Shown here piece by piece: positions 3,062 to 23,094 of a stretch of DNA of 64,000 nucleotides; the first letter of the stretch is position 1, and each line of letters begins with the position of its first letter. The DNA is from an uncultured virus (IMG/VR IMGVR_UViG_3300021559_000316) (Duplodnaviria > Heunggongvirae > Uroviricota > Caudoviricetes): the IMG/VR virus record IMGVR_UViG_3300021559_000316; one strand, written 5' to 3'. The translations under genes and the position numbers were made by a program. The notes below the pieces were generated by a model. That model searched no databases and was not told where the DNA came from. It saw nothing but the letters and a program-made list of their open reading frames with translations.

Positions 3062-3231
3062 TGACCGTTTTGCAAGAGGCGCGTCAATACTTGTATCGAT
3101 ATGGGACGATCACCGACACGACGATCGAGCCCGTCGACTTGATCCGGGACCTCGTCGGCGCGTTGGAACGTGCGCTCGCTGCCAGGAAGAAACCGACGGC
3201 GAGGAGCAAACTGAGCGCGCTCGGACGATGA
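3061..3231 (+). CDS. small hypothetical protein (56 aa, MTVLQEARQYLYRYG...)
   Basis: Read from the sequence; TGATG overlap upstream and ATGA overlap downstream. Confidence 0.55.
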   Translation: MTVLQEARQYLYRYGTITDTTIEPVDLIRDLVGALERALAARKKPTARSKLSALGR

Positions 3232-3548
3232 TCCTCGTCGACGAAGATGTCCTGAACGATCCTGTCTTCCACGCGACGCGGGAGATGGAGACCGATCCGA
3301 CGTTCGTGCCGTGCCGCGACGAGTGCTGCACGGTCCAAGCGCTTCATCGCGAGCACGAGGTCAAGGTCGGTCGCGGTCAGCGGTTCAAGCGTTGCCCGAT
3401 GTGCAACAGCGAGATCATCCGCATCCCCCGAAAGCGCGCCTACTGTTCGAGCCCGATCTGCTCGTGGCGGATCGTCAACCAATCAACGAAGGGAACGAAA
3501 CGTGCGAGAGATCAATCTGAGTCAGCCGACGAACGTCCTGCCCCGTAA
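3228..3548 (+). CDS. small zinc-finger protein
   Basis: CRDECC...LHREH and CPMC...CSSPIC motifs; ATG coupled to the upstream stop. Confidence 0.6.
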   Translation: MILVDEDVLNDPVFHATREMETDPTFVPCRDECCTVQALHREHEVKVGRGQRFKRCPMCNSEIIRIPRKRAYCSSPICSWRIVNQSTKGTKRARDQSESADERPAP

Positions 3549-4392
3549 CACGTTCCTCGTCTACGGAGATTCGCGAACGGGCAAGACGACGTGGGCCGCG
3601 ACGTTCCCGCGTCCGGTGTTCTTCTCGGACGCCACTGAAGGCGGGTGGGACTCGATCGCGAACATGTCCGACGATCAGCTGTTCGAGCCGGGCGTGAAGC
3701 CGCTCGTATGGGCTATTGAAAAAATGGACGATATGGTGACGGCGCGCGCGAAAGCCGAACCGCTCATCGCGTCGGGTCGCATCCAGACGATCGTCACCGA
3801 CAGCATCTCGTACTACTGCGATCTGTTCCTCAACTTCCTCCTGATGGCGCAGGCGAAGAAGGACACGCGATCGGCGTACGGCGACCTCGGCAACCACCTC
3901 CGCGATCTTCGCGTGAAGACCCACATGCTGCCGGTCAACGTGGTGTGGCTCGCTCTCGCGAAGCATCCCGACGACGTGTTCCCCGTCGGTGGGCCGATGA
4001 TCCCGGGCCAGCAGGCCGACAAGTTCATGGCCGGCGTGCACTACATCTTCCACTCGCGCGTTGATCAGCAGAAGCGCGGCCAGGAGCTTCTGCCACCAAC
4101 GTACGAGATGCGAACGAGGAAGTACCTCGGCTACATCGCCGGCAATCGCCTCGGTGGTCGCGCCAACCAGCTCCCCGATCCACTCGTCGGTGATTACCAG
4201 ACGCTCATCGAATCACTGGGCTACAACGCCGACGAGATCCGGAAGAACCTGCCGAAGATCGTTGCCAACGGCTCCGCACCTGCTCCGCAAGCACCGGCCG
4301 TCGTTCCGCAGCCGCGTCCCGTCGTTCAAGCACGTCCGCAAGTCGCTGTCGTGCCTCAGCGCAGGCCCGTGGTGGTGCCGCCGAAGAGCTAG
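3502..4392 (+). CDS. Sak4/AAA_24-like phage recombination ATPase
   Basis: Walker A YGDSRTGKT, DATEGG, Walker B IVTDSIS; lies between nuclease and SSB-like gene. Confidence 0.85.
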   Translation: MREINLSQPTNVLPRNTFLVYGDSRTGKTTWAATFPRPVFFSDATEGGWDSIANMSDDQLFEPGVKPLVWAIEKMDDMVTARAKAEPLIASGRIQTIVTDSISYYCDLFLNFLLMAQAKKDTRSAYGDLGNHLRDLRVKTHMLPVNVVWLALAKHPDDVFPVGGPMIPGQQADKFMAGVHYIFHSRVDQQKRGQELLPPTYEMRTRKYLGYIAGNRLGGRANQLPDPLVGDYQTLIESLGYNADEIRKNLPKIVANGSAPAPQAPAVVPQPRPVVQARPQVAVVPQRRPVVVPPKS

Positions 4393-9908: not shown

Positions 9909-10681
9909 GCGAGCTGCTGGATGACGAGCTTCTGCGCGTAGGCGTGCGTCAGGTTGCCGTCGGCCGGCGTGATCGTGAGCGCGGTCGCGTTGCCGGCCGG
10001 GTTGATCACCGCGAGCGTTTGGGCGGGGCCCGCCGGCACGGAGACGATCGCATCGACGACGATCGGATGGCCACCCGAGGTCGGGTTCGCGTTGCCGAAG
10101 CAGCTGTTGTCGACGGACGCGCCGTTCAGCTCCAGCTCCAGCTGTCCGGGCTCCGTGGTGTGCACGGTCGCCGTCACGCGGTAGACGCCGGGCAGGAGGG
10201 TGAACGACGAGTTGTCGACCCGAACGCCGGCTCCCGTGTTGGGCCCGGTGCGCGGGAACGGCACGCGGCCGGTTCCGGCCGATGTCTTGACCGCGACCGT
10301 CGCCGCGTAGTCGTTGCCCGACGAGCCGGTGCCCGTCGTGGTGCCGAAGAACATGCTGTACAGGAGCGCGGCGGCCCCCGAATCGACGTCGGTACCATCG
10401 ATGAACGGCTGAGGGTTCAGCACGATGTTTTGTGCGCCGCCGAACTCTCTTTCGATCGTGTGCCAGGACTCGACGAGCACGGACACGTTGAGCGGAAGGA
10501 GCGTCGTGTTCGTCACCGTGACGTTGGTGCCGTCTGCGGCGACGGTGATGCCCTTCGGGTTGGGGCAGATGAAGTCTGGGACCAGCGGAACACCTGCCTC
10601 GTTCAGCAAGTGCGGCTGCGAAACGGTGCCGCCTGCCGGGACTGCCGTGAAGTTCAGGATGTTCTTCAGCTGATTCGCCAT
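9905..10681 (-). CDS. putative virion spike/surface protein with BclA-C (C1q/TNF-like) domain
   Basis: Beta-rich T/G/N/V composition; C-terminal FTLLPGVYRV...GQLELELNG...LVIQQLA resembles BclA C-terminal domains. Confidence 0.6.
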   Translation of the reverse strand: MANQLKNILNFTAVPAGGTVSQPHLLNEAGVPLVPDFICPNPKGITVAADGTNVTVTNTTLLPLNVSVLVESWHTIEREFGGAQNIVLNPQPFIDGTDVDSGAAALLYSMFFGTTTGTGSSGNDYAATVAVKTSAGTGRVPFPRTGPNTGAGVRVDNSSFTLLPGVYRVTATVHTTEPGQLELELNGASVDNSCFGNANPTSGGHPIVVDAIVSVPAGPAQTLAVINPAGNATALTITPADGNLTHAYAQKLVIQQLA

Positions 10682-11169: not shown

Positions 11170-11648
11170 CGCGCAGAGGACATCGTACTTCGCCAGAAGA
11201 ACTGTTCTGCGCGAAGATCGTGATCGCACCAAACGGGTGCCATCTGTGGACGGCTGGCCGCACACTAGATGGGTACGGCAAATTCAGCATCACGCTCGAC
11301 GAGCGAAAGCCGTCTGGTCAGCTGAAGCAGAAGGTCGTTCGTGCGCATCGCTACGCGTTCTTCTTGAAGCACGGCCGTTGGCCAAACGAGAACGCGCTAC
11401 ATACGTGTGATGAGCCCCTGTGCGTGAACGCTGATCATCTAGAAGACGGCGATCAGAGCAAGAACGTCACCGATTGTGCTCTACGTGGGCGCCACGGCAA
11501 CAAACAAGCGACGCCGGAACTAGTGCGTGAGTGGCGCAATCGTGTGGCTGACGGGGAGCGGATCATCGACATCGTTCGCACTGCGAACGTCGCCTACCAC
11601 GTCGTCCGTCATGCGGTTCGTGGGCAGACTTGGAAGGCCGTTACATGA
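11166..11648 (+). CDS. HNH (His-Me finger) homing endonuclease
   Basis: GCHLWT, GYGKF, RAHRYA, LHTCDEPLCVNADHL, C-terminal HTH-like tail; lower GC. Confidence 0.9.
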   Translation: MTRRGHRTSPEELFCAKIVIAPNGCHLWTAGRTLDGYGKFSITLDERKPSGQLKQKVVRAHRYAFFLKHGRWPNENALHTCDEPLCVNADHLEDGDQSKNVTDCALRGRHGNKQATPELVREWRNRVADGERIIDIVRTANVAYHVVRHAVRGQTWKAVT

Positions 11649-12268
11649 GCGCCTTCTCCGTCGTGGTTGCTGATCCACCGTGGTCGTTCAACGACAAGCT
11701 TCCCGGTGAAGGCCGTGGCGCGGAGAAGCACTACCGCGTGATGACCATCGACGAGATCTGTGCGATGGCCATTCTTCCTGCACATCGCAGTGATCGCTTG
11801 ATGCTGTCGCTCTGCGGTCAGAGCGTACCGATCGCCGACGACGCCATCTTGTTCTTGTGGCGCGTTGCTTCACAGGTCGAAGAAGCGTGTCACGTCGTGC
11901 GAGCATGGGGCTTCACAGCGAAGAGCGAGATCGTCTGGAAGAAGCTGACGAAGTATGGCAAGCGCGCGTTCGGGATGGGTCGAACCGTTCGTATGGAACA
12001 CGAGATCTGCATGATCGCGACACGTGGTCGACCAACGATCAAGGTTAGGAACGTGCGTTCCGTGTTCGAGGCTCCGCTGGGCCGGCACTCGGAGAAGCCA
12101 CAAGCGTTCTACGAGATCGTAGAACAGCTTGTAGACGGCCCCTACCTGGAGCTGTTCGCTCGCCACGTGCGACCTGGTTGGGCCGTCTTGGGCGACGAGA
12201 TCGACGAGCGCGCGATCAACTCGAAGGCCGATCGTCGCGGCGACGTCGACGAGGTCATCATCACGTGA
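11645..12268 (+). CDS. MT-A70 family N6-adenine methyltransferase
   Basis: VVADPPW, LFLW, WGF, HEICMIATRG, HSEKP, YLELFAR, WAVLGDE. Confidence 0.9.
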   Translation: MSAFSVVVADPPWSFNDKLPGEGRGAEKHYRVMTIDEICAMAILPAHRSDRLMLSLCGQSVPIADDAILFLWRVASQVEEACHVVRAWGFTAKSEIVWKKLTKYGKRAFGMGRTVRMEHEICMIATRGRPTIKVRNVRSVFEAPLGRHSEKPQAFYEIVEQLVDGPYLELFARHVRPGWAVLGDEIDERAINSKADRRGDVDEVIIT

Positions 12269-12595: not shown

Positions 12596-12760
12596 ATGCC
12601 CTACGTCCTGATCATCGCGCTCGTTGGTGGCCTCCTCATGTACCTCCTGTGCTCGAACGCCAAGGCGGCCGAGATCGGTCGCATGCTGTTCTTCGCGGCG
12701 ATCCTGGGCTTGCTGATCGCGCTCGCACCGAGCACGGTGCGCATGCTCCACGGCGGCTAA
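12596..12760 (+). CDS. 54-aa two-TM membrane protein (holin-like or virion membrane protein)
   Basis: MPYVLIIALVGGLLMYLLCSNAKAAEIGRMLFFAAILGLLIALAP...; TAAGAT-N6-ATG promoter. Confidence 0.7.
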   Translation: MPYVLIIALVGGLLMYLLCSNAKAAEIGRMLFFAAILGLLIALAPSTVRMLHGG

Positions 12761-12793: not shown

Positions 12794-13312
12794 GTGCTCG
12801 TCAGCGATCGGCTGAACAAGATCCCGGCGCGGCTCGTGTTCACGACCGGGCTCGATCCGTTCCAGCTGCTCATCAACTTCACGACGAAGTGCCCGGCGTC
12901 GCACGCAGCGATCGGCATCGACGATCATCTGCTGCACGCGTACGAGGACGGCGTGCTGTTCGAGCCGCGCGACAAGTGGCTCGGCGAGCGCAAGCAGAAG
13001 CTCATCGCCGAGTTTCAGATCCTGCCCGACGTCACCGACGGGATCCACGCCGCGATGGGGCACGTCGGCAAGAAGTACGACGTCGCGCACGTGTTCAAGA
13101 TCGGCCTGCTGCGCCTGCTCAAGCCGGCCTTGTGGTCGCTTGGTCCCGATGCGCCGGACAAGTTCACGTGCGCTCGGTTCGTGACGATGATCGATCCGTA
13201 CGGCGACGCGATCCCCGAGTGGCGGGACATCTGGCGCGAGGCGATCGTGCCCGCTGATCTCCTCGACGTGGCGATGACGGGTGGAAGCTTTTTTCGTCTC
13301 TACCCGACGTGA
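12794..13312 (+). CDS. permuted papain-like (NlpC/P60, YiiX/YebB-type) hydrolase
   Basis: SHAAI (His), VGKKYD, FTCARFV (Cys), IVPADL; His precedes Cys. Confidence 0.8.
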   Translation: MLVSDRLNKIPARLVFTTGLDPFQLLINFTTKCPASHAAIGIDDHLLHAYEDGVLFEPRDKWLGERKQKLIAEFQILPDVTDGIHAAMGHVGKKYDVAHVFKIGLLRLLKPALWSLGPDAPDKFTCARFVTMIDPYGDAIPEWRDIWREAIVPADLLDVAMTGGSFFRLYPT

Positions 13313-13349
13313 GTTGACGATGGCCCATTTCTTGTGGGAATCTCCTTCC

Positions 13350-13463
13350 ATGGCAAGACGCAAGAGTTTGAAGTCGAAGCGCGCCGGCAAGCACTGCAAG
13401 CACGGGTTCCGCAAGGGCTCGGCGAAGTGCCTCAAGCGCGCTCGTCGCCGCCGCCGACGCTAG
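13350..13463 (+). CDS. 37-aa protamine-like basic protein
   Basis: MARRKSLKSKRAGKHCKHGFRKGSAKCLKRARRRRRR; TTGACG-N18-GAATCT-N6-ATG upstream. Confidence 0.7.
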   Translation: MARRKSLKSKRAGKHCKHGFRKGSAKCLKRARRRRRR

Positions 13464-13547
13464 CCAGCGTTCGCTGATGCGTGTGGCGCGCTCCGTCAGA
13501 CGTAGTGCCCTCACGGCTAGCGGAGGCACTACAATGAAGGAGCGGCG

Positions 13548-13868
13548 ATGCATCAGGTAACGCAGTGGCAGCAGACGGGGGTGTACGACCCGTACAACCC
13601 GAACCAGATCATCCGGGAGCCGAACAACATCGGCATCCCGGGTGGTGCGTACGGGTCGTTCTACTTCAACAAGGTCCCGACGACCGTCACCCAGGTGCTC
13701 GGTGGGCTCCGCGGCTCGATGTCGGGCCTGCCGGTGTTCCTGCAGGTCGGCATCGTCGGGAGCCTCGCGGCGGTCGCCGGATACTACTCCTGGCGATTTT
13801 TGGGCCCCAAGCTCGGCGTCAAGGGCATGTCCGGGCTCGGCGGTCGCCGTCGTCGTCGGCGGCGCTGA
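13548..13868 (+). CDS. single-TM protein with MSGLGG-R7 tail
   Basis: SD GAAGGAG; hydrophobic LPVFLQVGIVGSLAAVAGYYSW; ends GMSGLGGRRRRRRR. Confidence 0.8.
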   Translation: MHQVTQWQQTGVYDPYNPNQIIREPNNIGIPGGAYGSFYFNKVPTTVTQVLGGLRGSMSGLPVFLQVGIVGSLAAVAGYYSWRFLGPKLGVKGMSGLGGRRRRRRR

Positions 13869-14185
13869 TGGCTGGTCCAGCACGAAGGTATCGACGCCGT
13901 TCGCCGGGTGACGACCGCGCAGCGAGCCCATCGGCAGCCAACGTCGAAGCTGCGACGAGGCTCGGTTGTCGAGACGCGGTCAAAGGCCGTAAGAATCCTC
14001 ACAAGCCTGAAGCGCGCGGGTTCGTCTCCGCGTACCGCGAGGGCTATCGGATCTGCGAGGCGATCTATACCGGCCGCGAGCGCTTCCTCAAGTCCGACGA
14101 GAAGCGCGTGATGCACAAGCTCAAGCTCGAAACCGAAGTACAGCACGTGCCGCTTTCTGGTACGCGCCGCCGAAGGCGTCGTTAG
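13868..14185 (+). CDS. basic protein with LSGT-R6 tail
   Basis: TGATG coupling; MAGPARRYRRR...HVPLSGTRRRRRR. Confidence 0.7.
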   Translation: MAGPARRYRRRSPGDDRAASPSAANVEAATRLGCRDAVKGRKNPHKPEARGFVSAYREGYRICEAIYTGRERFLKSDEKRVMHKLKLETEVQHVPLSGTRRRRRR

Positions 14186-14188
14186 ATC

Positions 14189-14527
14189 ATGGCCAAGCGC
14201 ATCGACGATAGCCACCACGCGTTCAAGCGCGGCGCTCGGCTCGGCCCCGGGCCGAGGAAGCGCCAGCTCTACGAGGAGCGCAACTGGGAGTGCACGAAGG
14301 GCAAGAACACGAGCACCGAGTACGTGCAGATCTGCCGCTACGTCGGCGACGATCGCACGAAGCGCGGCAAGCGCGTCAAGATCAAGCGCAAGAAGTCGGC
14401 GAAGAAGGCGTACAACAAGATCTACCGCGCGTGGCAGAAGCGAAACGCTCGCGTGCAAGCGTTCCAGTCGCGCCCGCGGAAGTCGGGCTACCGCTGCCGC
14501 AAGACTCCCGTCGCGAAGTGCAAGTAG
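14189..14527 (+). CDS. highly basic Lys/Arg/Cys protein (putative DNA-condensing core protein)
   Basis: Very K/R-rich with four Cys; good codon usage. Confidence 0.75.
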   Translation: MAKRIDDSHHAFKRGARLGPGPRKRQLYEERNWECTKGKNTSTEYVQICRYVGDDRTKRGKRVKIKRKKSAKKAYNKIYRAWQKRNARVQAFQSRPRKSGYRCRKTPVAKCK

Positions 14528-14540
14528 AGGAGGATCGCTA

Positions 14541-14813
14541 ATGCCCGCACTCATGACGCTTCAGGGGCCGAATCTCGGCAACCTCGGTTGGATGGAGCGC
14601 ACCAACGTGACGCCGCCGCTCTCCGGTGCTGGCGGATCGATCCTGCTCTCGCCGATCGTCATCCTCCTCATCGGCGGTGTCGTCGGCGGCGTGCTCGCGC
14701 AGAAGAACGTGCACCCGTTCCGCGCGCTGCGCAGCAAGGCCGCCAGCATCCGGGGCCACCAGCGCATGCAGCAGTCGCGCACCAAAGCGCTATCGGGGCG
14801 TCGCCGACGGTAG
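14541..14813 (+). CDS. single-TM protein with LSG-R4 tail
   Basis: SD GAGGAGG; LSGAGG before TM ILLSPIVILLIGGVVGGVLA; ends ALSGRRRR. Confidence 0.8.
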   Translation: MPALMTLQGPNLGNLGWMERTNVTPPLSGAGGSILLSPIVILLIGGVVGGVLAQKNVHPFRALRSKAASIRGHQRMQQSRTKALSGRRRR

Positions 14814-14834
14814 CCGTGATAGGCTGAAGCGGCG

Positions 14835-16289
14835 ATGTTACTCGCGGGCAATCCGGTCGCCGGCTTCGGTGTGTTCCGAAGCTTTCCGGGACAGGGTGCC
14901 GTCGCGACAACGCCGGGGCAGCTCGTCGCCTCGCCGCCCGACGTCGTGTTCGCTGGTGGCTACCAGGTAGGTCCGTTCGTCCTACCGACGCTGCCGTACG
15001 AGGACTACGACCCGGGGACCGGCGCGCCGACGGCGGGAAGCACGTTCGAAGACGGCACGCTCGACGCGATCGCCGCATGCTCGACGAACCAGCCGGCCGG
15101 GAGCGTGGCGTTCAAAGGCTCGGGGCTGGTGATGACCATCACCGACCCGTCGCAGATCTCGCAGGCGCTGCGCGATCAGATCGCCAAGGTAATCTTCGAT
15201 CCGCAGCTCGTGCATCCAGCGGCGGTCGCTCGCGGGCAGAACTTCTTCGGCAACTACTGGTTCAACGATTCGATGGGGACGCCGGACCCGTGGTGGAAGG
15301 ATCGCGGCCGGTTCTCGAACGAGCCCGGCTACGACATGACCAAGCCGGCGTGGTGGAACCAGCCGAAGCTTCAGCAGAGCTACCGCGACTGGATCACCGC
15401 GCTCGGGATCGGGCCCGACGAGAACTACAACCTCTCGATGATCTCGATCGCCGCGTCCGGCGTCGAGCCGTGGAACACGTACGGCCCGATCATGGGCGGT
15501 ATCCCGGTTGCGCAGTATCGCGGCCCACTCCTGCAGGTCCCGGGCGCTCCAAATGTCGTCCCGGGCGCTCCAAATGTCCCGGTCGGCGCGACCGCCGCCG
15601 ATCGCGGGCTCTCGATCTGGGATCCGTCGAACTGGACGGCGACCGACAACCCCGACGTGTGGGATCCCAACGATCCGACGCGGCCGTGGATGGAGTGGTC
15701 GATCTTTCTGCAGCTCCGCGCGTGGGGCAACAAGTACGACTACGAGAAGGTCGGCGGCGGCGTGCTCAGCTGCAGCTCGCAGTGCGTTCCTGTCCCGTAC
15801 ACGCCGGTCGACAGCTACTTCGTGCTCGACGTCTACTTCGTCCCGACGAGGAACTGGACGAACTTCGGCAAGAACTCGGGCTGCTTCGATCCGTTCGCGC
15901 TCCTGCCGAAGCTCCTCCTGGGAGAGATCAGCTGGGTGTTCGGCGCGCTGACGCAGCTCGTCTGCGACATCCTCACCAACCCCGCCGCGCTCGCCGCGCT
16001 CGCGGTGACGACCGCGGCGCAGACCGCACCGCCGTCGCAGAAGGGCAAGCCAACGCAGCCGCAGGTCGCTGCGGCGTCCGCACAGCTCCTCGCGCAAGCC
16101 GCCAAGCAGTGCACGATCACGTGCCCCGACGGCACGACGAAGGCGGCGACACAGGCGCAGTGTCCGACGTTGCTTCCCGTGCCGACCGTCGGCACGACCG
16201 GGATTCCGTGGAGCGTCGTGATCGTGGGCGCGCTCGCGCTCGCGGCGGCACTGCTGCTCAGCTCACCTCGACCGAAAGAAGCAACCTGA
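14835..16289 (+). CDS. large C-terminally membrane-anchored protein (putative virion or surface protein)
   Basis: Pro/Gly/Trp-rich body, TCPDG module, C-terminal TM WSVVIVGALALAAALLL. Confidence 0.8.
   Translation: MLLAGNPVAGFGVFRSFPGQGAVATTPGQLVASPPDVVFAGGYQVGPFVLPTLPYEDYDPGTGAPTAGSTFEDGTLDAIAACSTNQPAGSVAFKGSGLVMTITDPSQISQALRDQIAKVIFDPQLVHPAAVARGQNFFGNYWFNDSMGTPDPWWKDRGRFSNEPGYDMTKPAWWNQPKLQQSYRDWITALGIGPDENYNLSMISIAASGVEPWNTYGPIMGGIPVAQYRGPLLQVPGAPNVVPGAPNVPVGATAADRGLSIWDPSNWTATDNPDVWDPNDPTRPWMEWSIFLQLRAWGNKYDYEKVGGGVLSCSSQCVPVPYTPVDSYFVLDVYFVPTRNWTNFGKNSGCFDPFALLPKLLLGEISWVFGALTQLVCDILTNPAALAALAVTTAAQTAPPSQKGKPTQPQVAAASAQLLAQAAKQCTITCPDGTTKAATQAQCPTLLPVPTVGTTGIPWSVVIVGALALAAALLLSSPRPKEAT
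15537..15578 (+). repeat. perfect 21-bp tandem duplication (VPGAPNV x2)
   Basis: GTCCCGGGCGCTCCAAATGTC twice, in frame. Confidence 0.9.
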
Positions 16290-16657
16290 TGGCGATCGGA
16301 CCAGATCGATTTATCGTGCTCGGCCGCAAGGGCAAGCGGCGCACGTTCACCAACTGGGAAGACGCCGTCGCCGTCGCCAAGAAGTGTTCGCGCACCAAGC
16401 GCGGCACGATCTGCCGCGTGCTCCACGGCTATCCCGGCAACGAGGTTGCGGTCCTCGAATGCAAGCAGAACCGCTGCGGCGCGCCGCACCCGAAGTCGCC
16501 GCGTGGGCTGCACGGCCGCAAGAAGCGCCGCCGCGGCCTCGGCAACGGCAAGTACGAGCCGCCTCCGAGCTGGCACGAACGCAAGGGCCCACCGCCCGGC
16601 GTGCCGATCATTCCTTCGAACCTGAAGGGTCGGAAGAGCCGGAAGCGGCGCCGGTAG
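16289..16657 (+). CDS. basic Cys-containing protein with LxG-basic tails
   Basis: TGATG coupling; GLHGRKKRRRGLG and terminal NLKGRKSRKRRR. Confidence 0.75.
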   Translation: MAIGPDRFIVLGRKGKRRTFTNWEDAVAVAKKCSRTKRGTICRVLHGYPGNEVAVLECKQNRCGAPHPKSPRGLHGRKKRRRGLGNGKYEPPPSWHERKGPPPGVPIIPSNLKGRKSRKRRR

Positions 16658-16670
16658 AAAGGACACGACG

Positions 16671-17072
16671 ATGCTAGCTCTCGGTCATGGTCACGGCGGC
16701 GGTGGTCACCACGGAGGTGGCGGTCATCATCACGGTGGTGGCGGTCGCGGTTGGTGGGCTCCCGACGTCTACGTCGTGCAGACCGACTGCTGCGGCACCG
16801 TCGCGCAGAATCCCGTGATCGCGTCCGACGGGCAGATCTACTGCAACGCCGCGTGCGTTCCAGCCGGTCTCACCGTCGTCGGCGCCGCCGGCCTTCACGG
16901 GCTCGCCGGCTCGTTCATGCCGTCACTGCCGACGATCTTGGGCGTCGCCGCCGTCGCGCTCGTCGGGTTCTGGGGCTACCGCAAGCTCCGTCCGAAGAAG
17001 CGCGTCCTCGGTGCGCCGCCGCTCTGTGACGATCCGAAGTTCGCGAAGAAGCACCCGCGCGCTTGTCGCTAG
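16671..17072 (+). CDS. Gly/His-rich single-TM protein with a Kazal-like Cys motif
   Basis: SD GAAAGGA; GHGHGGGGHH, CC...PVIASDGQIYCNAAC, TM ILGVAAVALVGFWGY then basic tail. Confidence 0.75.
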   Translation: MLALGHGHGGGGHHGGGGHHHGGGGRGWWAPDVYVVQTDCCGTVAQNPVIASDGQIYCNAACVPAGLTVVGAAGLHGLAGSFMPSLPTILGVAAVALVGFWGYRKLRPKKRVLGAPPLCDDPKFAKKHPRACR

Positions 17073-17302
17073 AGATCGACATCGGGCACGGCATCACGAT
17101 CAAGTGGGCCGACGAAGGTCGGACGCTGATGTGGAAGCACCCCAAGTGTCGAGCGTGGTGGTGGCTCGCGTTCAAGCCGGATCCAAGGTCCACCGGTCAC
17201 GTGCTCGCGTCGCGTGAGCCGCTGACGATCATCGGCTCGTTGCTCTGCACGGACTGCAACACGCACGGCACCATCGAGAATGGCCGCTGGGTCCCGGCGT
17301 AG
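17063..17302 (+). CDS. small Cys/His protein (DUF6527-like)
   Basis: PLTIIGSLLCTDCNTHGTIENGRW. Confidence 0.55.
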   Translation: MSLEIDIGHGITIKWADEGRTLMWKHPKCRAWWWLAFKPDPRSTGHVLASREPLTIIGSLLCTDCNTHGTIENGRWVPA

Positions 17303-17485
17303 CTACCGCCTCGGGCGCTTCGGGATCGAGCGGTGGCCGGCTCGCCGGCACATCGAGTAGCCGATCGCGACGGCCTGCATGCGTTGCTTCTTCGTCCGGC
17401 ACTTGCCGCGCTTCTTGTGGCAGTGCCTCGCGATCTCCTCGGAGATGCACGCTCGTGCGGCGGCCGACGGTCGACGTTTCGCCAT
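17303..17485 (-). CDS. 60-aa basic protein
   Basis: K/R/C-rich with QAVAIGYS; TGA-TAGCCT-N6-ATG promoter. Confidence 0.7.
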   Translation of the reverse strand: MAKRRPSAAARACISEEIARHCHKKRGKCRTKKQRMQAVAIGYSMCRRAGHRSIPKRPRR

Positions 17486-17497
17486 GCCGCTAGGCTA

Positions 17498-18493
17498 TCA
17501 CTCCACGTACTCGGCGTCTTCGACGTCGTCGGGCGCGTTGATGTAGCCGCGCCAGCGTGACCGCGTCGACGCGAGGCGCTGTTCGCGTGCTTCCTTGATG
17601 AGCTTGGTGATCGGCCCGACGAGCATGCCACGGCGACCGCGCTCGTTGCCGTACGCACGCGCCAGCTCCTTGTCCGACGGCGGATCGGCCTCGGTGCTCG
17701 CCCACGCCTCGGCGCGGCGGGCGAACTCCTGCGGCGTTCGGCTCTCCTTGGCGATCACCGCGAGCATGCTCGGGCCATCGATCTCGGCGAACCCGAGCGA
17801 CTTGCGCCGCGACCAGAACCAGTACGCGGCGACGCCTGCGCCGAGGATGCCGACCGCGATCGCGATCCACAGGAGCGCGCGCTGCGTGCTCGGGAACACC
17901 GCGAGCACCTGCGGCGCGAGCTGCGTCGCGAAGTCGGACGCGCCCTGCGGCTGGAAGTGCACGCCGTCGCCCGCGCGGTTGTCCGTCGACGATAGCGGCC
18001 GAGCATCGATCACGTTGCCGCCGAACACGTCGTTCAGCATCGCGTAGACCTGATCGACCTTGGCGTTCAGGTTGGCGTCGGCGAAGATCGGCGGCCCGAT
18101 CGCCAGAATCTCGGTCGCCGTCGGGAACGAGTCGCGGATCTGCGCCATCGCCGCTGGATCGATCGCGCCCGAGTCGGCGTCGTTGGTGCCGAGCATGACG
18201 ATGACCTTGGTCGGCGCGAATTGCTGGTCGCTGGCGATTAGGCTCGCCGGGTCGTTCTGCTGAAAGCGTGCGTGCGGCGTGTTCCAGAAGTTGTGCGCCG
18301 AGCGGCCGACGTTGGCGTCGATCCGGACGGCTGTCGCGCCGGCCTCCGCGATCATGCTCGCGAGCAGATCGCCTGGCGCTGACGCCAAGCGGTCGGAGCC
18401 CGCGTCGACGTCCCAGATCTCGGGGTCACCGTCGCTGCCGTGGTGCGACAGCGAGTCTCCAAATAGGAGGACGCGCTCGCCGCTCACGTTCAT
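17498..18493 (-). CDS. SGNH/GDSL hydrolase with membrane anchor
   Basis: FGDSLS, GRS, LGTND, DGVHF; TM LLWIAIAVGILGAGVAAYWFW. Confidence 0.88.
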   Translation of the reverse strand: MNVSGERVLLFGDSLSHHGSDGDPEIWDVDAGSDRLASAPGDLLASMIAEAGATAVRIDANVGRSAHNFWNTPHARFQQNDPASLIASDQQFAPTKVIVMLGTNDADSGAIDPAAMAQIRDSFPTATEILAIGPPIFADANLNAKVDQVYAMLNDVFGGNVIDARPLSSTDNRAGDGVHFQPQGASDFATQLAPQVLAVFPSTQRALLWIAIAVGILGAGVAAYWFWSRRKSLGFAEIDGPSMLAVIAKESRTPQEFARRAEAWASTEADPPSDKELARAYGNERGRRGMLVGPITKLIKEAREQRLASTRSRWRGYINAPDDVEDAEYVE

Positions 18494-18545
18494 GGAGCTA
18501 GCCTATCACGCACGACTGCCGGACCGCTCTGGTAGGATGCTTCGA

Positions 18546-18944
18546 GTGCCGTACGCCGTAATCTCCCCGGATGGCGACGTCGTCGATCTCGTGCCCGACG
18601 TCGACGATGCGATCGACGTCGCCTCGCACATCGCGCCGATGGTCTCCGTCGAGAACGGTCCTAGCGACGCTGGCATGTCGGGCCTCGGTGAACTCGGCGC
18701 GGTCAACCGGAAGCGGCCCGAGCACGCGCTCCATGGCAACCCGTTGTCGCAAGATGACCACGAAGGATCTCGTCGCTCGCACCGAGCACGAGGTCGGCCG
18801 CAAGCTCACCACGGCCGAGCGCGCCGGCCTCGATCTCATGCCTCCGCAGTACGATTGCGCTACGCCGCGGGCGCAGTCGAGCGGTGGGAGCGGAAGAGCA
18901 AGAGGCCGATCCCAACTGCAGCGGCCACCGCGAGCGCGCCGTAG
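18546..18944 (+). CDS. acidic-then-basic protein with MSGLG motif; possible frameshift near 18740
   Basis: TGG-TAGGAT-N7-GTG; codon quality moves to the frame of 18733..18948 after about 18740. Confidence 0.5.
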   Translation: MPYAVISPDGDVVDLVPDVDDAIDVASHIAPMVSVENGPSDAGMSGLGELGAVNRKRPEHALHGNPLSQDDHEGSRRSHRARGRPQAHHGRARRPRSHASAVRLRYAAGAVERWERKSKRPIPTAAATASAP

Positions 18945-19792
18945 ATGAGCGTCTGAGGATCGAGTCCGAAGAACGTCGGTGTCGCCACGACGCCGCCGTC
19001 GGGCGGGATCGGCGATGGCGGCGTGAGCGGCGGCTGGTCGGTCGGCGTCACCGTCAAGCCCGTCGACGAGCCCGGTGCTGGCTGCGCGCCCGTGGGGCAC
19101 AGCGACGGGTCCGACGCCGTCGAGCCGTCGGGGCACGTGACGCCGCCGCCACCGGGTGCCGTCGTCGTCGTCGGCTGTGGGCAGGACGTGCCGATGGGAA
19201 CCTGCGTGCCGTCGGGGCACGTGATCGTCGGCGGCACGTACCACTGCGCGGCGCCCGCATTGTCGGGAAGGCTCAGGTACGTCTCCAGCCAGACGATCAT
19301 CTGCTGCGCGTTCGCGGCGAGCCACGCCGGCTGCGTGCAGCACGAGATCGCGACTTGGATGTCGCCCGACATCCCTCCGCACGACGGGTCGCTAGCGCAC
19401 GGCGGGTTCACGCCCGCGATCGCGACCGCCTGCGTGACCGTCGACGCGTCGATCACGGCGTTGAGCGGCATGACGTAGGTCGAGCCCTGAACTTGGCCGT
19501 AGAGCATCTGCGCGGCCTGGTTCAGGAGCCACTGCAGGTGACGGTACGTGTTCTGGACGTTCGGATCGCCGCTCGTGATCGAGCCCGAGCCCGTCTGGGT
19601 GAACCCCTGCGGGCCGATCACGGGTCCTGTGCTGGTGCCCGAGCCCGTCCGGATCGGCCCGGTGCTCACCGGCCCAGACCCGACTACCATCATCGGCATG
19701 AACGTCTGCGTGCTCTGTGGCGGCGTCGGGCCCTGTGGGATCGCGGGCGAGGCCCCGCGTGGCAGCATCCCGAGCCCGGTGAGCGTGAGCAT
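18860..19792 (-). CDS. Pro/Thr/Gly-rich C-terminally anchored membrane protein
   Basis: N-terminal MLTLTGLG, two TCPDG...CP modules, TM LIYGALAVAAAVGIGLLLF. Confidence 0.8.
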   Translation of the reverse strand: MLTLTGLGMLPRGASPAIPQGPTPPQSTQTFMPMMVVGSGPVSTGPIRTGSGTSTGPVIGPQGFTQTGSGSITSGDPNVQNTYRHLQWLLNQAAQMLYGQVQGSTYVMPLNAVIDASTVTQAVAIAGVNPPCASDPSCGGMSGDIQVAISCCTQPAWLAANAQQMIVWLETYLSLPDNAGAAQWYVPPTITCPDGTQVPIGTSCPQPTTTTAPGGGGVTCPDGSTASDPSLCPTGAQPAPGSSTGLTVTPTDQPPLTPPSPIPPDGGVVATPTFFGLDPQTLIYGALAVAAAVGIGLLLFRSHRSTAPAA

Positions 19793-21931: not shown

Positions 21932-23047
21932 TCATGACTTCGCCGCCAGGATGCGCTCGCGGTGGATGATGGGGCCGCGGCACCGAGCGTTAGACTTCGC
22001 CTTGCAGCGTGGACACGCGATCGTGAGCGCTCGGTTCTGCAGCTCGGTGAACGCCCCGATCGTCGATGCCGTGGTCACGACGACGGGCTCGGAAGCAGCC
22101 GCCTTGCGGAACTCGGCGACCGTGCCGTAGACGCCGTCGCCGCGGCTGCCGCGATCGTAGCCTCGCGTCGTCTCAGCCTTCGCGTGGTGGACCGACGCTT
22201 GGATGTCGCGCTCGTAGATCTTGGCGTCGTACGCGGTCGTGATGAACGCGGCGCGGAATCGGTGCGGCGTGATCGCTTCGGTGATGCCGGCCGCCTTGGC
22301 GCGGCTCGTGAGGATGCCGTTGATCGTCCCGAGCAGGACGTGCTCGCTCGGATCACCGCGCTTGGGGAACACGTAGTCGGACTTCGGCGCGATCTTGAGC
22401 CACGCGGTGAGCGCCGCCTCGGCCTCGGGCGTCAATCGGATCATGCCCTCCCGGCCGCCCTTCAAGATCACGATAGCGACCATGTTGTCGCCGTCGCGAC
22501 GAAACTGATCGCGGCGCAGACCCGCGAGCGACGCACGCCGCAGGCCAGTGTCGTAGAGCAGGCGCACGATCGCGGCGTCGCGGCGACCGTCGCGCGTTCG
22601 ATCGCAGTCGATCTGTATGAGGAGCTTCTCCACGTCGTCGTCTTGGACGGCCGGCGTCCGCTGCAGCGCGCTGACCTCGGGCCTGGGAAGCCACACCTTC
22701 GCGAAGGGGTTGGTACGTACGAGCCCGGCGTCGCGCAGCGCTCCGTAGAAGAACGACAGCGTCGACAGGATCCGTGCGATCGACGCAGGCCCGTACGCGA
22801 GCGCCTTGCCGTCACGGAACGCCGTGGTCGCCGCGAGCCCGGGGATCTTGATGTCGACGCGATTCTCGACGACGAACTCGCACCACTTTCGCCAGTCGGC
22901 CTCGTACGCGATGCGTGTGTTCTCCGATCGCCGCGACGCGATCAGCTGCTCGATCGCAGCGTCGACGTCAGGCCAGCGATCGGCGATGGTCTTCCGAGTC
23001 TCGGGCCAGAGATCGGATCGGAGCTGTAGGGCGGTGGTCGGGGGCAT
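21932..23047 (-). CDS. tyrosine recombinase/integrase 1 with C-terminal Zn finger
   Basis: SAM-like N-domain (SENTRIAYEADW), TGLRRAS, KGG, HRFR, HH...TTRGY; tail CPRCKAKSNARC...HRER; start at TAGACT-N7-ATG. Confidence 0.93.
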   Translation of the reverse strand: MPPTTALQLRSDLWPETRKTIADRWPDVDAAIEQLIASRRSENTRIAYEADWRKWCEFVVENRVDIKIPGLAATTAFRDGKALAYGPASIARILSTLSFFYGALRDAGLVRTNPFAKVWLPRPEVSALQRTPAVQDDDVEKLLIQIDCDRTRDGRRDAAIVRLLYDTGLRRASLAGLRRDQFRRDGDNMVAIVILKGGREGMIRLTPEAEAALTAWLKIAPKSDYVFPKRGDPSEHVLLGTINGILTSRAKAAGITEAITPHRFRAAFITTAYDAKIYERDIQASVHHAKAETTRGYDRGSRGDGVYGTVAEFRKAAASEPVVVTTASTIGAFTELQNRALTIACPRCKAKSNARCRGPIIHRERILAAKS

Positions 23048-23094
23048 GATCGCGAGTCTACGCTGGTCGCCATAGTTGCACATATGTTGGCGCG

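What the first reader, a model, noticed from the sequence alone, without database searches (positions are those of the whole stretch)
12794..19792. Cluster of otherwise unrelated membrane and basic proteins sharing [LM]-x-G motifs and poly-Arg tails: a candidate protease-matured virion system
Seen: neighbouring proteins repeat one short motif at termini and at TM or basic-segment boundaries. 13548 ends GMSGLGG-R7, 13868 ends PLSGT-R6, 14541 has PLSGAGG before its TM and ends ALSG-R4, 16289 has GLHG-RKKRRR-GLG and ends NLKG-RKSRKRRR. 16671 has GLHGLAG before its TM, 18546 has GMSGLGELG, and three proteins begin MLTLTGLG (19792), MLLAG..VAGFG (14835) and MLALG (16671). Established: adenain cuts (M/L/I)xGx|G and (M/L/I)xGG|x in Arg-rich core precursors pVII and pX; MSGLG (twice), LSGAG and LTGLG match the first pattern exactly. 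Inference: these are virion precursors whose Arg tags bind DNA or membrane during assembly and are clipped at LxG. I do not know of this adenovirus-like logic being described for a large PolA-encoding bacterial element.
Basis: partly seen in the sequence, partly recalled or inferred. Interest (0 to 1): 0.9.

Follow-up and report, generated by a model that had tools for sequence, protein, structure and literature searches.

The report
Arginine-tailed proteins of a tailless virus
A block of small membrane and very basic proteins in an uncultivated large bacterial virus shares a conserved ending (hydrophobic-x-glycine followed by a run of arginines) and a short LxGLG signal, which probably marks proteins that hold the viral DNA and inner layers together; whether the signal is cut by a protease, as in adenovirus, is still open.

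Summary
Poly-Arg/Lys C-termini are far beyond chance: 5 of 107 window proteins against 0.25 expected, all between 13.3 and 16.7 kb. They are conserved in orthologs from at least five distant relatives. The broad adenain patterns are not enriched in the window. The narrower [LMI]xGLG is enriched, and in 17 independent loci of related genomes it occurs 76 times against 11-15 expected.

The window belongs to an undescribed lineage of temperate bacterial viruses whose contigs here run 39-221 kb. They encode PolA. In a complete 138-kb relative Pfam/PHROG found no terminase, portal, HK97 capsid or tail gene. The lineage's most conserved gene is a jelly-roll protein.

My best reading (0.5) is that these are inner-membrane and core proteins whose "LxG + Arg-run" ends clamp DNA or acidic lipid. 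Cleavage at LxG (about 0.25) is untested. No clan CE protease was found. Two papain-fold cysteine enzymes exist: a YiiX-type hydrolase at 12794, and in relatives a membrane-anchored transglutaminase-like core gene. The main rival is host-membrane or lysis proteins (0.3). I rate it a new variant of a known kind, interest 0.7.

The parts
12596..12760 (+). 54-aa protein with two hydrophobic helices
   Evidence: GC3 0.91. Two TM segments. Orthologs in L011 and G002. Weak LydA-holin Pfam hit, E 0.019, below the cut-off.
12794..13312 (+). 172-aa YiiX-type permuted NlpC/P60 (papain-fold) cysteine hydrolase
   Evidence: 93 homologs, all metagenomic. H37, H48 and C126 are invariant in 44 sequences. AF2 model pLDDT 90.7. 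VIA Z 13.8 to 3kw0, 13.3 to YiiX 2if6, 8.2 to TseH. Foldseek 3kw0 E 4.2e-4. No Pfam hit at E up to 5.
13350..13463 (+). 37-aa mini-protein (ORF opens at 13281), net charge +19, 2 Cys, ends KRA-RRRRRR
   Evidence: Orthologs in L011, L012 and by eye in L017. Similar small genes stand before the 13548 ortholog in G003 and G006.
13548..13868 (+). 106-aa single-pass membrane protein: conserved N-domain, L-x-G, TM, basic linker, ends GMSGLGG-RRRRRRR
   Evidence: GC3 0.88. TM at residues 60-78; the C-part carries +10. Orthologs in L012, L017/L018, G001, G002, G003, G006, L058, L059. 31 representatives at 50% clustering. L51 and G53 are at least 90% conserved and the C-end consensus is LSGxRRRRR.
13868..14185 (+). 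Up to 105-aa basic protein (+16), ends PLSGT-RRRRRR; its start is uncertain
   Evidence: The frame shows high GC3 only from about 13940. No homolog. Absent from L012.
14189..14527 (+). 112-aa very basic protein (+29), 4 Cys, no Arg tail
   Evidence: GC3 0.94. Orthologs in L017/L018 at E 2e-41 and in L058. Absent from L012.
14541..14813 (+). 90-aa single-pass membrane protein: starts MPALMTLQGP, PLSGAGG before the TM, basic C-part (+12), ends ALSG-RRRR
   Evidence: Orthologs in L012, L017/L018, G002, with ends FFG-RKLKRRRR and SLHGP-RRRRR. In G003 the same ALSG is followed by a further domain.
14835..16289 (+). 484-aa protein with a C-terminal membrane anchor and a TCPDGT..CP element; no signal peptide
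   Evidence: GC3 0.87. TM at residues 457-475. Only one homolog cluster in 5.8 billion (92% identity), plus L012. No Pfam or PHROG hit.
16289..16657 (+). 122-aa basic protein (+26), 4 Cys, internal GLHG-RKKRRR-GLG, ends NLKG-RKSRKRRR
   Evidence: GC3 0.86. Ortholog in L017/L018 ending TLG-RARRRR.
16671..17072 (+). 133-aa membrane protein: His/Gly-rich start, 6 Cys, GLHGLAG before the TM, basic C-part (+9)
   Evidence: No homolog found.
17063..17302 (+). 79-aa Cys-containing protein of unknown role
   Evidence: GC3 0.88. No hits.
17303..17485 (-). 60-aa basic protein (+18), 4 Cys, DUF6496-like, ends PKRPRR
   Evidence: Pfam DUF6496 at 21.2 bits, under the cut-off of 24. A similar gene lies in L058.
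17498..18493 (-). 331-aa SGNH/GDSL esterase domain, one TM, then a 107-aa C-terminal domain
   Evidence: Pfam Lipase_GDSL at 31.7 bits, over the cut-off of 23.6. TM at residues 206-224. Orthologs in G001, L018, G002.
18546..18944 (+). Doubtful ORF carrying GMSGLGELG
   Evidence: GC by codon position 0.75/0.56/0.74. Overlaps the 3' end of the 18860 gene. No homolog.
18860..19792 (-). 310-aa Thr/Pro/Gly-rich protein with a C-terminal membrane anchor and two TCPDG..CP elements; starts MLTLTGLG
   Evidence: GC3 0.90. TM at residues 282-300. Weak homolog G001 61071-61889 at E 3e-4, whose start is MLSITSLG. L015 6751-7497 starts the same way and has CPDGS..CP.

Best explanation
Window 12.6-19.8 kb is a conserved gene block of an uncultivated, temperate, large bacterial virus. 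The lineage has no recognisable tailed-phage head, portal, terminase or tail genes, and its most conserved gene is a jelly-roll protein.

The block encodes four kinds of protein:
- five or six Cys-containing mini-proteins with net charges of +16 to +29;
- three single-pass membrane proteins whose strongly basic C-parts should face the cytoplasm;
- tail-anchored Cys/Thr/Pro-rich proteins;
- two envelope-acting enzymes, a YiiX-type NlpC/P60 hydrolase and a membrane-anchored SGNH esterase.

Many otherwise unrelated proteins of the lineage end in one module: hydrophobic-x-Gly, then 0-2 residues, then 4-8 Arg/Lys, then stop. I read this module as a polycation clamp on a glycine hinge. On this reading these are proteins of the particle's inner membrane and nucleoprotein core, or of its assembly site. 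They bind and neutralise the viral DNA, or acidic lipid, and tether it to the membrane.

The second signal, [LMI]xGLG, is lineage-wide and concentrated near the capsid gene. It is a recognition site. It may or may not be cut by the lineage's papain-fold cysteine enzymes.

Shown here: the motifs, their excess over chance, their conservation, the membrane and charge anatomy, the enzyme folds, and the lack of tailed-phage genes in relatives.

Inferred: presence in the particle, DNA binding, membrane topology, and any cleavage.
For: Tails:
- Window: 5 of 107 proteins against 0.25 expected. G001: 3 of 111 against 0.19. G002: 6 of 207 against 0.18.
- The Arg codons are mixed.
- Orthologs keep the module while the rest of the protein diverges. 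The 13548 family ends GLGG-R7, GLGG-RRRRGRRR, GLGGY-R6, LMGT-R6-S, LSGA-R5, LAGP-R6-T and LHGH-R4. The 14541 and 16289 families behave likewise.
- 16 of the 30 fetched representatives of the 13548 family end in a basic run.
- 27 of 59 non-redundant tail-bearing proteins have [LMIFV]xG 0-2 residues before the run, against a 10% background. These fall in at least 8 families by my reading of the list.

Soluble basic proteins without a TM carry the same ends. That fits nucleic-acid binding better than a topology signal.

[LMI]xGLG:
- 76 against 11.3 expected in 17 loci round the jelly-roll gene.
- 76 against 14.5 with local shuffles, 0 of 60 reaching it. Permuted controls are flat at 12 against 14.7 and 20 against 13.6.
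- In complete G002 the looser [LMI]xG[LF]G hits lie almost only in the Arg-tail operon and in the jelly-roll region.

Lineage:
- G002 is complete (137,914 bp with terminal repeats). No terminase, portal, HK97 capsid, tail or DJR capsid was found among 128 proteins scanned against PHROGs and 58 against Pfam.
- PF03237 and PF05065 hit 0 of 5 genomes.
- The jelly-roll protein has 453 homologs, and the best 120 are at least 67% identical. The model is a beta sandwich; Foldseek's best hit is the SPV1 capsid, and VIA gives Z 6.0-6.5 mostly to viral capsid jelly rolls.
- The 13548 family and the jelly-roll gene share a contig in six genomes.
Against: - No proteomic or expression data exist, so presence in particles is only inferred.
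- The window block follows the replication and methylase genes and borders the integrase. In G001, G002 and G003 the Arg-tail operon keeps that place, tens of kb from the jelly-roll gene.
- No window cluster protein lies within 10 kb of the jelly-roll gene in 17 loci.
- The window itself holds no jelly-roll or transglutaminase-like gene. Its membership in the lineage rests on shared genes and synteny with G001.
- The jelly-roll model is only moderate: pLDDT 64.5 and Z about 6, a range where matches can reflect a common arrangement.
- 75 small ORFs of G002 were not scanned.
- 14 of the 30 fetched representatives of the 13548 family lack a basic run at the end.
- 4 of the 17 loci show no motif excess.
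- Cytoplasm-facing basic tails are also what the positive-inside rule gives any membrane protein.
Confidence: 0.5

Rival explanations
1. Host-membrane proteins, not particle parts. On this reading the block is a lysis, egress, entry-exclusion or membrane-remodelling cassette. The small TM proteins act as holin- or antiholin-like or exclusion proteins. The YiiX-type hydrolase and the SGNH esterase attack the envelope. The Arg runs only fix topology or bind acidic lipid.
For: - The block sits after the replication genes and next to the integrase, away from the jelly-roll gene in relatives.
- 12596 has a weak holin-like hit, E 0.019.
- 12794 is YiiX-type and resembles the type VI effector TseH at Z 8.2; that TseH is a cell-wall hydrolase is recalled.
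- An SGNH esterase with a TM is present.
- All basic parts lie on the predicted cytoplasmic side.
- 0 of 17 jelly-roll loci hold window-cluster homologs.
Against: - Five soluble, TM-less mini-proteins carry the same ends and charges of +16 to +29.
- The LxG element before the run recurs in at least 8 families.
- [LMI]xGLG is concentrated round the capsid-type gene.
- G001 has a separate GH25 lysozyme with small TM proteins at 38-41 kb.
- In G001 and L015 the 12794 and 18860 families lie 6-10 kb from the jelly-roll gene, among motif-bearing TM proteins.
Confidence: 0.3
2. The proteins are particle precursors, and a viral cysteine protease cuts them at (M/L/I)xGx|G-type sites. This trims N-terminal peptides, frees ectodomains from their TM anchors and clips off oligo-arginine tails, as adenain does with pVI, pVII and pX. 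This is a special case of the best explanation.
For: - MSGLG, LSGAG and LTGLG fit (M/L/I)xGx|G (the adenain consensus is recalled).
- The motif sits at domain boundaries and is conserved there: L51 and G53 are at least 90% conserved in the 13548 family.
- There is a strong lineage-wide excess of [LMI]xGLG.
- A membrane-anchored transglutaminase-fold enzyme is a core gene of the jelly-roll module (14 of 17 loci). Its Cys/His/Asp are invariant in 15 of 15 sequences, and a GLG element lies just after its own TM.
- In G003 a 14541-type protein runs on past ALSG into a further domain, like a polyprotein joint.
Against: - There is no evidence of any cut.
- The broad consensus is not enriched in the window.
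- The ends LSG-x-Rn have Arg, not Gly, after the site.
- Some motif copies lie inside TM helices or in 11-residue LNGLG tandem repeats, which look structural.
- Clan CE families hit 0 of 5 genomes.
- 12794 was found in 0 of 17 jelly-roll loci. Its closest folds are YiiX and, more distantly, TseH, which I recall as a cell-wall hydrolase.
- Transglutaminase-fold enzymes may cross-link rather than cut.
Confidence: 0.25
3. Composition or chance. High G+C coding favours Gly, Arg, Ala and Leu, so the motifs and Arg runs carry no function.
For: - The window is 62-70% G+C.
- The broad LxG patterns match the shuffled expectation.
- The N-terminal likeness is not significant.
Against: - Tails: 5 against 0.25 expected, and no shuffle above 2.
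- None of the other 92 window proteins of the same composition has such an end.
- The ends are conserved across orthologs of 40-57% identity.
- Composition-matched permuted motifs are flat.
Confidence: 0.03

Closest known systems
Adenovirus core and cement precursors pVII, pX (mu) and pVI, matured by adenain (recalled knowledge, not from a call)
   Same: Both have small Arg-rich proteins beside membrane-active ones. Both have a short hydrophobic-x-Gly-x-Gly element at segment boundaries. Both have a short basic peptide after the last element: pVI ends in an 11-residue basic peptide released at an IVGL|G-type site, and 13548 ends MSGL-GG-R7.
   Different: No clan CE protease was found. No double jelly-roll capsid was found. 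The broad consensus is not enriched in the window. Most ends are LSG-x-Rn, which adenain's rules do not cover. Many of the proteins are membrane-anchored. The host is bacterial. No cleavage is shown.
Sulfolobus polyhedral virus 1 (Portogloboviridae)
   Same: It gave the best Foldseek match of the lineage's jelly-roll protein (6oj0_Z, E 0.012, prob 0.91; VIA Z 6.4). [quoted passage not shown] That is the architecture in which basic core proteins and membrane proteins with basic tails would make sense.
   Different: SPV1 has a 20-kb circular genome and an archaeal host. Here the contigs run 39-221 kb, the host is bacterial, and the genomes carry PolA, helicases, integrases and methylases. The structural match is moderate. 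Nothing shows lipid in these particles.
Vaccinia membrane protein A17 with I7 protease, and the ASFV polyproteins with pS273R (recalled)
   Same: A viral membrane protein is trimmed at both ends at a two- or three-residue Gly motif during maturation of a jelly-roll-scaffolded, membrane-containing particle.
   Different: Those proteases are clan CE, the sites are AG|X or GG|X, and the hosts are eukaryotic. None of this is shown here.
T4 internal proteins with their N-terminal capsid-targeting sequence, removed by the prohead protease (recalled)
   Same: Unrelated small, partly basic proteins in a variable gene block share a short terminal signal that directs them into the particle.
   Different: T4 is a tailed phage with an HK97-fold head. 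Its signal is N-terminal and ends LxE. Here the robust shared signal is C-terminal, and the N-terminal likeness is not significant in the window.
YiiX / Peptidase C92-type permuted NlpC/P60 hydrolases (PDB 3kw0, 2if6) and the type VI effector TseH
   Same: The 12794 protein matches the fold at Z 13.8, 13.3 and 8.2. It has an invariant His-His-Cys.
   Different: It gave no Pfam match at E up to 5. Its substrate is unknown: cell wall, lipid or protein.

Membership tests
Adenain-type (clan CE) maturation system | A clan CE cysteine protease (Peptidase_C5, C48 or C57) encoded by the element | tested here: inconclusive
   No such Pfam hit among 107 window proteins. PF02902 hit 0 of 5 related genomes and its control rang. 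PF00770 hit 0 of 5, but its control rang nowhere. The rest of the window's genome could not be read.
Adenain-type (clan CE) maturation system | (M/L/I)xGG|x and (M/L/I)xGx|G sites in excess in the precursor proteins | tested here: not met
   Window cluster: 9 against 6.4 and 11 against 8.3 with 10 of 60 shuffles reaching it. Only the narrower [LMI]xGLG is in excess, 3 against 0.3-0.5. In 17 related loci the broad pattern is 397 against 271.
Adenain-type (clan CE) maturation system | Demonstrated cleavage products in particles | not testable with these tools
   Needs particle proteomics.
Internal-membrane jelly-roll viruses (SPV1-like, Sphaerolipoviridae-like) | A jelly-roll major capsid protein | tested here: inconclusive
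   The window has none. Relative G001 has a 236-aa protein with 453 homologs. Its model has pLDDT 64.5. Foldseek's best hit is the SPV1 capsid at E 0.012. VIA gives Z 6.0-6.5, mostly to viral capsid jelly rolls.
Internal-membrane jelly-roll viruses (SPV1-like, Sphaerolipoviridae-like) | An FtsK/HerA-type packaging ATPase (a Sphaerolipoviridae and PRD1-type feature) | tested here: inconclusive
   A DUF87/HerA-like ATPase is present in G001 (Pfam E 2.4e-10), in L015 and in 2 of 5 further genomes. It is absent from the complete G002 and G006.
Internal-membrane jelly-roll viruses (SPV1-like, Sphaerolipoviridae-like) | Lipid in the particle | not testable with these tools
   Only many small TM proteins are seen.
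Tailed phages (Caudoviricetes) | Terminase large subunit, portal and HK97-fold capsid | tested here: not met
   None in the window. The PHROG 'terminase' hits of 59050-61539 come from its intein; the extein is GHKL/sacsin-like. None in G001. None in the complete G002 among 128 proteins (PHROGs) and 58 (Pfam). PF03237 and PF05065 hit 0 of 5. Caveats: divergent forms could escape, and 75 short ORFs of G002 were not scanned.
YiiX / permuted NlpC/P60 hydrolases (the 12794 protein) | Permuted papain-like fold with a His...His...Cys catalytic set | tested here: met
   VIA Z 13.8 (rmsd 2.6 A over 142 residues) to 3kw0 and Z 13.3 to 2if6. H37, H48 and C126 are invariant in 44 sequences.
YiiX / permuted NlpC/P60 hydrolases (the 12794 protein) | A match to Pfam PF05708 over its cut-off | tested here: not met
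   No Pfam family at E up to 5. The ESM Atlas places it near viral clusters of which 35-49% carry PF05708, with scores of 0.93-0.94.
Holin / lysis cassette | A recognised holin family next to an endolysin | tested here: inconclusive
   12596 matches Phage_holin_3_3 at E 0.019 and 15.5 bits, against a cut-off of 28.4. The other small TM proteins have no hit. 12794 could be a wall hydrolase.
SGNH/GDSL hydrolases (the 17498 protein) | A Pfam Lipase_GDSL match over the cut-off and the N-terminal GDS block | tested here: met
   31.7 bits against a cut-off of 23.6. FGDSLS lies at residues 11-16 of the translation.

The most novel reading that the evidence does not exclude
A maturation code in a new group of large tailless bacterial viruses. 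A membrane-anchored transglutaminase-fold cysteine protease, and/or the YiiX-type one, would cut [LMI]xGL|G-type sites in dozens of unrelated membrane and core proteins. The cuts would release ectodomains and free oligo-arginine peptides that condense the genome. This would be adenovirus- and poxvirus-like logic reached with an unrelated protease, in viruses that seem to lack any packaging motor.
Probability: 0.2. Interest if true: 0.9.

Novelty: new variant of a known kind. Interest (0 to 1): 0.7.

Why it matters
Cultured bacterial viruses are not known to use protamine-like core proteins or membrane proteins with DNA-binding tails; that statement is my own knowledge. Five full-text searches, of which I read only the listings, turned up nothing on this lineage or this motif.

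If the Arg-tailed set builds a nucleoprotein core under a membrane, it would explain how a genome of about 100 kb or more can be enclosed without a terminase-type motor. It would also give sequence markers (LxG-Rn ends, LxGLG) for finding particle proteins in a widespread soil virus group that annotation pipelines now label as tailed phage. The motifs make the question testable with one proteomics experiment on an induced provirus. A relative of the lineage's jelly-roll gene lies in a Gemmatimonadota chromosome.

Tried and rejected
- Ribosome-site origin of the Arg runs. Rejected: the codons are mixed CGN, not AGGAGG.
- Close relatives among known phages. None by blastn of the block or by tblastn of the 484-aa protein. 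IMG/VR pattern scans with the 484-aa and SGNH proteins found nothing.
- The window's own genome is not held, so the rest of the contig could not be read.
- "Terminase" at 59050-61539. Rejected: the hits are to its intein.
- HerA-like ATPase as the lineage's packaging motor. Not supported: it is missing from the complete G002 and G006.
- Complex prediction of the 12794 hydrolase with the 13548 protein. The tool gave no verdict, score 0.00. This counts neither for nor against binding.
- A shared N-terminal tag. By a residue-class test the window has no such pair among cluster proteins. My post-hoc pattern found only 1 of 207 proteins in G002. What remains is that orthologs keep their own N-termini (MPALMTLQGP / MPTILTLQGP; MLTLTGLG / MLSITSLG).
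- P0220, a 2750-aa hit of the 13548 search, is a repeat protein matching only a DPYxxxQ stretch. I dropped it as spurious.
- The Gemmatimonadota chromosome. The 12794-like gene (2.25 Mb) and the jelly-roll gene (3.71 Mb) are far apart, and no 13548 family was found there. That record is therefore not one provirus carrying the whole set.
- The first genome-contig scan, with the 12794 family, found nothing.
- The Foldseek and VIA lists for the jelly-roll model did not place PRD1 or PM2 capsids among the shown rows. The ESM Atlas lead to those families is weak, 0.76-0.78.

Full report
**What is in the window**

The window is 62-70% G+C and has no tRNA gene. I called genes by third-position G+C: 104 ORFs covering 82% of the window. 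I dropped two antisense ORFs inside 16289-16657 and added five more ORFs by hand (three, two). Counts on 107 proteins come from these sets.

Pfam and PHROGs on 107 proteins give this order:
- SNF2 helicase;
- PD-(D/E)XK nuclease;
- Sak4-type AAA_24;
- DUF669;
- a UDG-PolA fusion with a LAGLIDADG intein (5790-9908);
- a BclA_C/C1q-type fibre on the minus strand (9905-10681);
- TSCPD;
- MT-A70 methylase;
- DUF4031;
- the block in question;
- minus-strand genes running to a tyrosine integrase (21932-23083).

Further on lie a second integrase, a C5 methylase, Mom and a response regulator. No capsid, portal, terminase or tail gene was recognised. The PHROG "terminase" hits of 59050-61539 come from its intein. 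The extein begins like a GHKL/sacsin-type ATPase.

**Checking the observation**

All quoted strings are present.

- Very basic, Cys-containing proteins without a TM: 13350-13463 (37 aa, +19, ends R6), 13868-14185 (+16, ends R6), 14189-14527 (+29), 16289-16657 (+26) and 17303-17485(-) (+18).
- Single-pass membrane proteins whose C-parts carry +10, +12 and +9: 13548, 14541 and 16671.
- Proteins with only a C-terminal anchor: 14835 and 18860. They share a TCPDG..CP element.
- An SGNH esterase with a TM (17498-18493).
- A two-helix mini-protein (12596).
- A 172-aa protein at the head of the block (12794).

Two items are weak. The 18546 ORF has no clear coding signature. The first third of 13868 is also doubtful. 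Neither has a homolog.

**Chance**

C-terminal runs of at least four R/K occur in 5 of 107 window proteins, against 0.25 expected from shuffling each protein. The maximum in 500 shuffles was 2. All five lie within 3.4 kb. The runs use mixed Arg codons.

The broad adenain patterns are not enriched. They occur 9 times against 6.4 inside the block and 30 against 23.2 outside it. With local shuffles the figure is 11 against 8.3.

The narrower [LMI]xGLG is enriched: 3 against 0.32 expected, with 6 of 1000 shuffles reaching it, and 0 against 1.0 in the rest of the window. The likeness of the three N-termini is not significant.

**Relatives**

The block has no DNA match among 50,697 phage records. 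The 484-aa protein has one homolog cluster in 5.8 billion.

The 12794 protein opened the way. It gave two IMG/VR loci and nine metagenome loci, with 93 homologs in all.

- The 94% relative L012 keeps the ends R6, GLGG-RRRRGRRR and ALSG-R4, but lacks the 13868 and 14189 genes.
- The 47% relative L017/L018 keeps the gene order. Its ends are LMGT-R6-S, FFG-RKLKRRRR and TLG-RARRRR.
- The 80-kb IMG/VR contig G001 shares ten genes with the window: helicase, AAA_24, DUF669, a 135-aa protein, PolA, fibre, 12794, 13548, the SGNH esterase and the integrase. A weak match to 18860 (E 3e-4) makes an eleventh.
- Its 13548 ortholog ends IAGLGGY-R6.
- The complete genome G002 has 13548-, 14541- and 16289-like genes in a row after its methylase. 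They end LSGA-R5, SLHGP-R5 and LPGLG-RARRKRRRK.
- G003, L058 and L059 repeat the pattern. In L059 five consecutive genes end in basic runs.

A HMMER search of 1.84 billion representatives found 31 members of the 13548 family; one was spurious. In the alignment of 30 sequences the L-x-G after the N-domain is at least 90% conserved. The C-end consensus is L-S-G-x-RRRRR.

Over all proteins I had collected, 59 of 1034 non-redundant ones end in a basic run. Of these, 27 have [LMIFV]xG 0-2 residues before the run, against 10% at other positions. About 20 of the 27 belong to the 13548 family. The rest spread over at least seven other families by my reading of the list.

**The LxGLG signal in independent genomes**

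I took the motif as defined from the window and counted it in 17 further IMG/VR loci. Each locus is 13-21 kb, centred on the lineage's jelly-roll gene.

- It occurs 76 times against 11.3 expected.
- With shuffles confined to 12-residue blocks it is 76 against 14.5, and 0 of 60 shuffles reach it.
- Same-composition permutations are flat: [LMI]xLGG 12 against 14.7 and [LMI]xGGL 20 against 13.6.
- Ten loci reach the observed count in at most 1 of 200 shuffles, and 13 in at most 5. Four loci show no excess. All four have a jelly-roll gene 62-63% identical to G001's.

The copies lie before TM helices, sometimes inside them. They also form tandem 11-residue LNGLG repeats in the protein next to the jelly-roll gene. 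Only 3 of 76 lie in the first ten residues. The signal is therefore real and lineage-wide, but not all copies look like protease sites.

**What kind of virus**

G001 shows no terminase, portal, HK97 capsid or tail gene.

Its 236-aa protein has 453 homologs, the best 120 at least 67% identical, on contigs up to 179 kb. It folds as a beta sandwich (pLDDT 64.5). Foldseek's best match is the SPV1 capsid (E 0.012). VIA's best matches (Z 6.0-6.5) are mostly viral jelly-roll capsid proteins. This is a moderate result.

G002 (137,914 bp, terminal repeats, CheckV 100%) was scanned on 128 proteins of at least 110 aa with PHROGs. A further 58, including the four that span my fetch boundaries, were scanned with Pfam. 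The scans found replication genes, RIIA/RIIB, an integrase and wall-binding domains, but no morphogenesis gene of any known type. Seventy-five shorter ORFs were not scanned.

A HerA-like ATPase exists in G001, L015, G004 and G005, but not in G002, G003 or G006.

The jelly-roll gene also lies in a Gemmatimonadota chromosome and on contigs binned with an Actinomycetes MAG and a Polyangiales MAG. That makes the host bacterial and fits the integrases.

Earlier notes of this scan describe the same kind of lineage. I treated them as leads. My own calls agree on three points: the missing tailed-phage genes, the SPV1-like jelly roll, and the N-arm (VGVAPGTTT) shared between the jelly-roll protein and a small TM protein in G001 and L015.

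**Candidate enzymes**

The 12794 protein is a YiiX-type permuted NlpC/P60 hydrolase.
- The model has pLDDT 90.7.
- VIA gives Z 13.8 to 3kw0, 13.3 to YiiX and 8.2 to the type VI effector TseH.
- His-His-Cys is invariant in 44 sequences.
- It stands next to motif-bearing proteins in every relative with enough flank.
- It is absent from all 17 jelly-roll loci.
- Apart from TseH, which I recall as a wall hydrolase, its nearest folds carry no stated role.

The core of the jelly-roll module is:
- the jelly-roll protein (17 of 17 loci);
- the LNGLG-repeat protein (17 of 17);
- a 165-aa protein (14 of 17);
- a membrane-anchored transglutaminase-like protein (14 of 17).

In the transglutaminase-like protein Cys, His and Asp are invariant in 15 of 15 sequences. 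One copy has an intein at the catalytic Cys. A GLG element lies just after the TM. The window does not contain this gene. Clan CE families were not found.

**Reading**

The Arg-run ends are shared by soluble and membrane proteins. They sit at the very C-terminus after a Gly, and they are kept over large distances. Together with the charge of the mini-proteins, this fits a polycation clamp for DNA, or for acidic lipid.

The lineage seems to build a jelly-roll shell without a recognisable packaging motor. Core and inner-membrane proteins are therefore the most economical role (confidence 0.5).

The block's place in the genome and its two envelope-acting enzymes keep a host-membrane or lysis role alive (0.3).

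Cleavage at LxG (0.25) is attractive because of the boundary positions, the G003 fusion at ALSG and the core cysteine enzyme. It has no direct support. The ends LSG-x-Rn do not fit adenain's rules.

**Limits**

- No part of the window's genome outside the 64 kb could be read.
- Gene starts come from my own simple caller.
- Family counts are not phylogenetically independent.
- I read only the search listings of papers, not their texts.
- The adenovirus, poxvirus, ASFV and T4 comparisons are from recall.

Noticed in passing
window 59050-61539 (+): An 829-aa protein whose PHROG 'terminase large subunit' hits come only from an intein (LAGLIDADG_3, about residues 67-420). The extein starts like a GHKL/sacsin-type ATPase, and the intein sits in the ATP-binding Gly box. 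The C-extein is 47% identical to an unannotated stretch of a 485-kb uncultured phage record.
   Followed up: partly
window 5790-9908 (+); L004:8212-14247 (G001): A UDG-PolA fusion interrupted by a LAGLIDADG intein. The G001 ortholog is 2012 aa, with LAGLIDADG and HNH/Hint inteins.
   Followed up: no
window 9905-10681 (-); G002 2724-3830, 6902-7609, 11505-12257; G001 52351-54078: The fibre's first 90 or so residues (MA.QLKN.L.F...) are shared by several proteins with different C-terminal domains, such as BclA_C/C1q here. This looks like exchangeable spikes on one anchor domain.
   Followed up: partly
G002 (L038-L044), complete 137,914-bp genome with terminal repeats: No terminase, portal, HK97 or DJR capsid, tail or FtsK-type ATPase was found by PHROGs (128 proteins) or Pfam (58 proteins). 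RIIA/RIIB, PolA, an integrase and ThiF are present.
   Followed up: partly
G001 60339-61055 (L002:6001-6714:-) and 14 of 17 jelly-roll loci: A membrane-anchored transglutaminase-like protein is a core neighbour of the jelly-roll gene. Cys/His/Asp are invariant in 15 of 15 sequences. In L031 an intein is inserted at the catalytic Cys.
   Followed up: partly
G001 55003-55689 and its orthologs in 17 of 17 loci (e.g. L028:9098-9790, L025:9309-9929): The protein next to the jelly-roll gene carries tandem 11-residue repeats of the type LNGLG-(I/M/Y)P-x3-A.
   Followed up: no
G001 54189-54899 vs 63998-64222; L015:9639-9914: The jelly-roll protein's N-arm (MAGGTVGVAPGTTT) recurs near the start of a small TM protein (MLAISLTPYVGVAPSTTT; L015 ...TPYVGVAPGTTT), as an earlier scan note said for another genome.
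   Followed up: partly
L050:1812-2237 (G003): The 14541-type protein does not stop after ...ARALSG. It continues into a 50-residue domain that resembles the start of the 16289 family. This is either a natural fusion at the LxG joint or an assembly frameshift.
   Followed up: no
L055 (Gemmatimonadota chromosome record, 3.71 Mb), L053, L054: The jelly-roll gene (69-71% identity) occurs in a complete Gemmatimonadota chromosome and on contigs binned with an Actinomycetes MAG and a Polyangiales MAG, which gives a host lead. A 12794-like gene lies 1.46 Mb away in the same chromosome.
   Followed up: partly
L012:2484-2595 vs window 13868-14527: The 94% relative lacks both 13868 and 14189, an indel of about 670 bp. 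The 47% relative L017 and L058 keep the 14189 family.
   Followed up: no
window 14835-16289 and 18860-19792(-); L015:6751-7497: A shared mini-element, (I/V)TCPDG(T/S)-x(6-8)-CP, lies ahead of the C-terminal anchor in otherwise unrelated proteins. It occurs once in the 484-aa protein and twice in the 310-aa protein.
   Followed up: no
G001 37486-37920 and 37923-38363: Two adjacent paralogs of about 145 aa both end in F-I-(G/D)-G-I-G-A.
   Followed up: no
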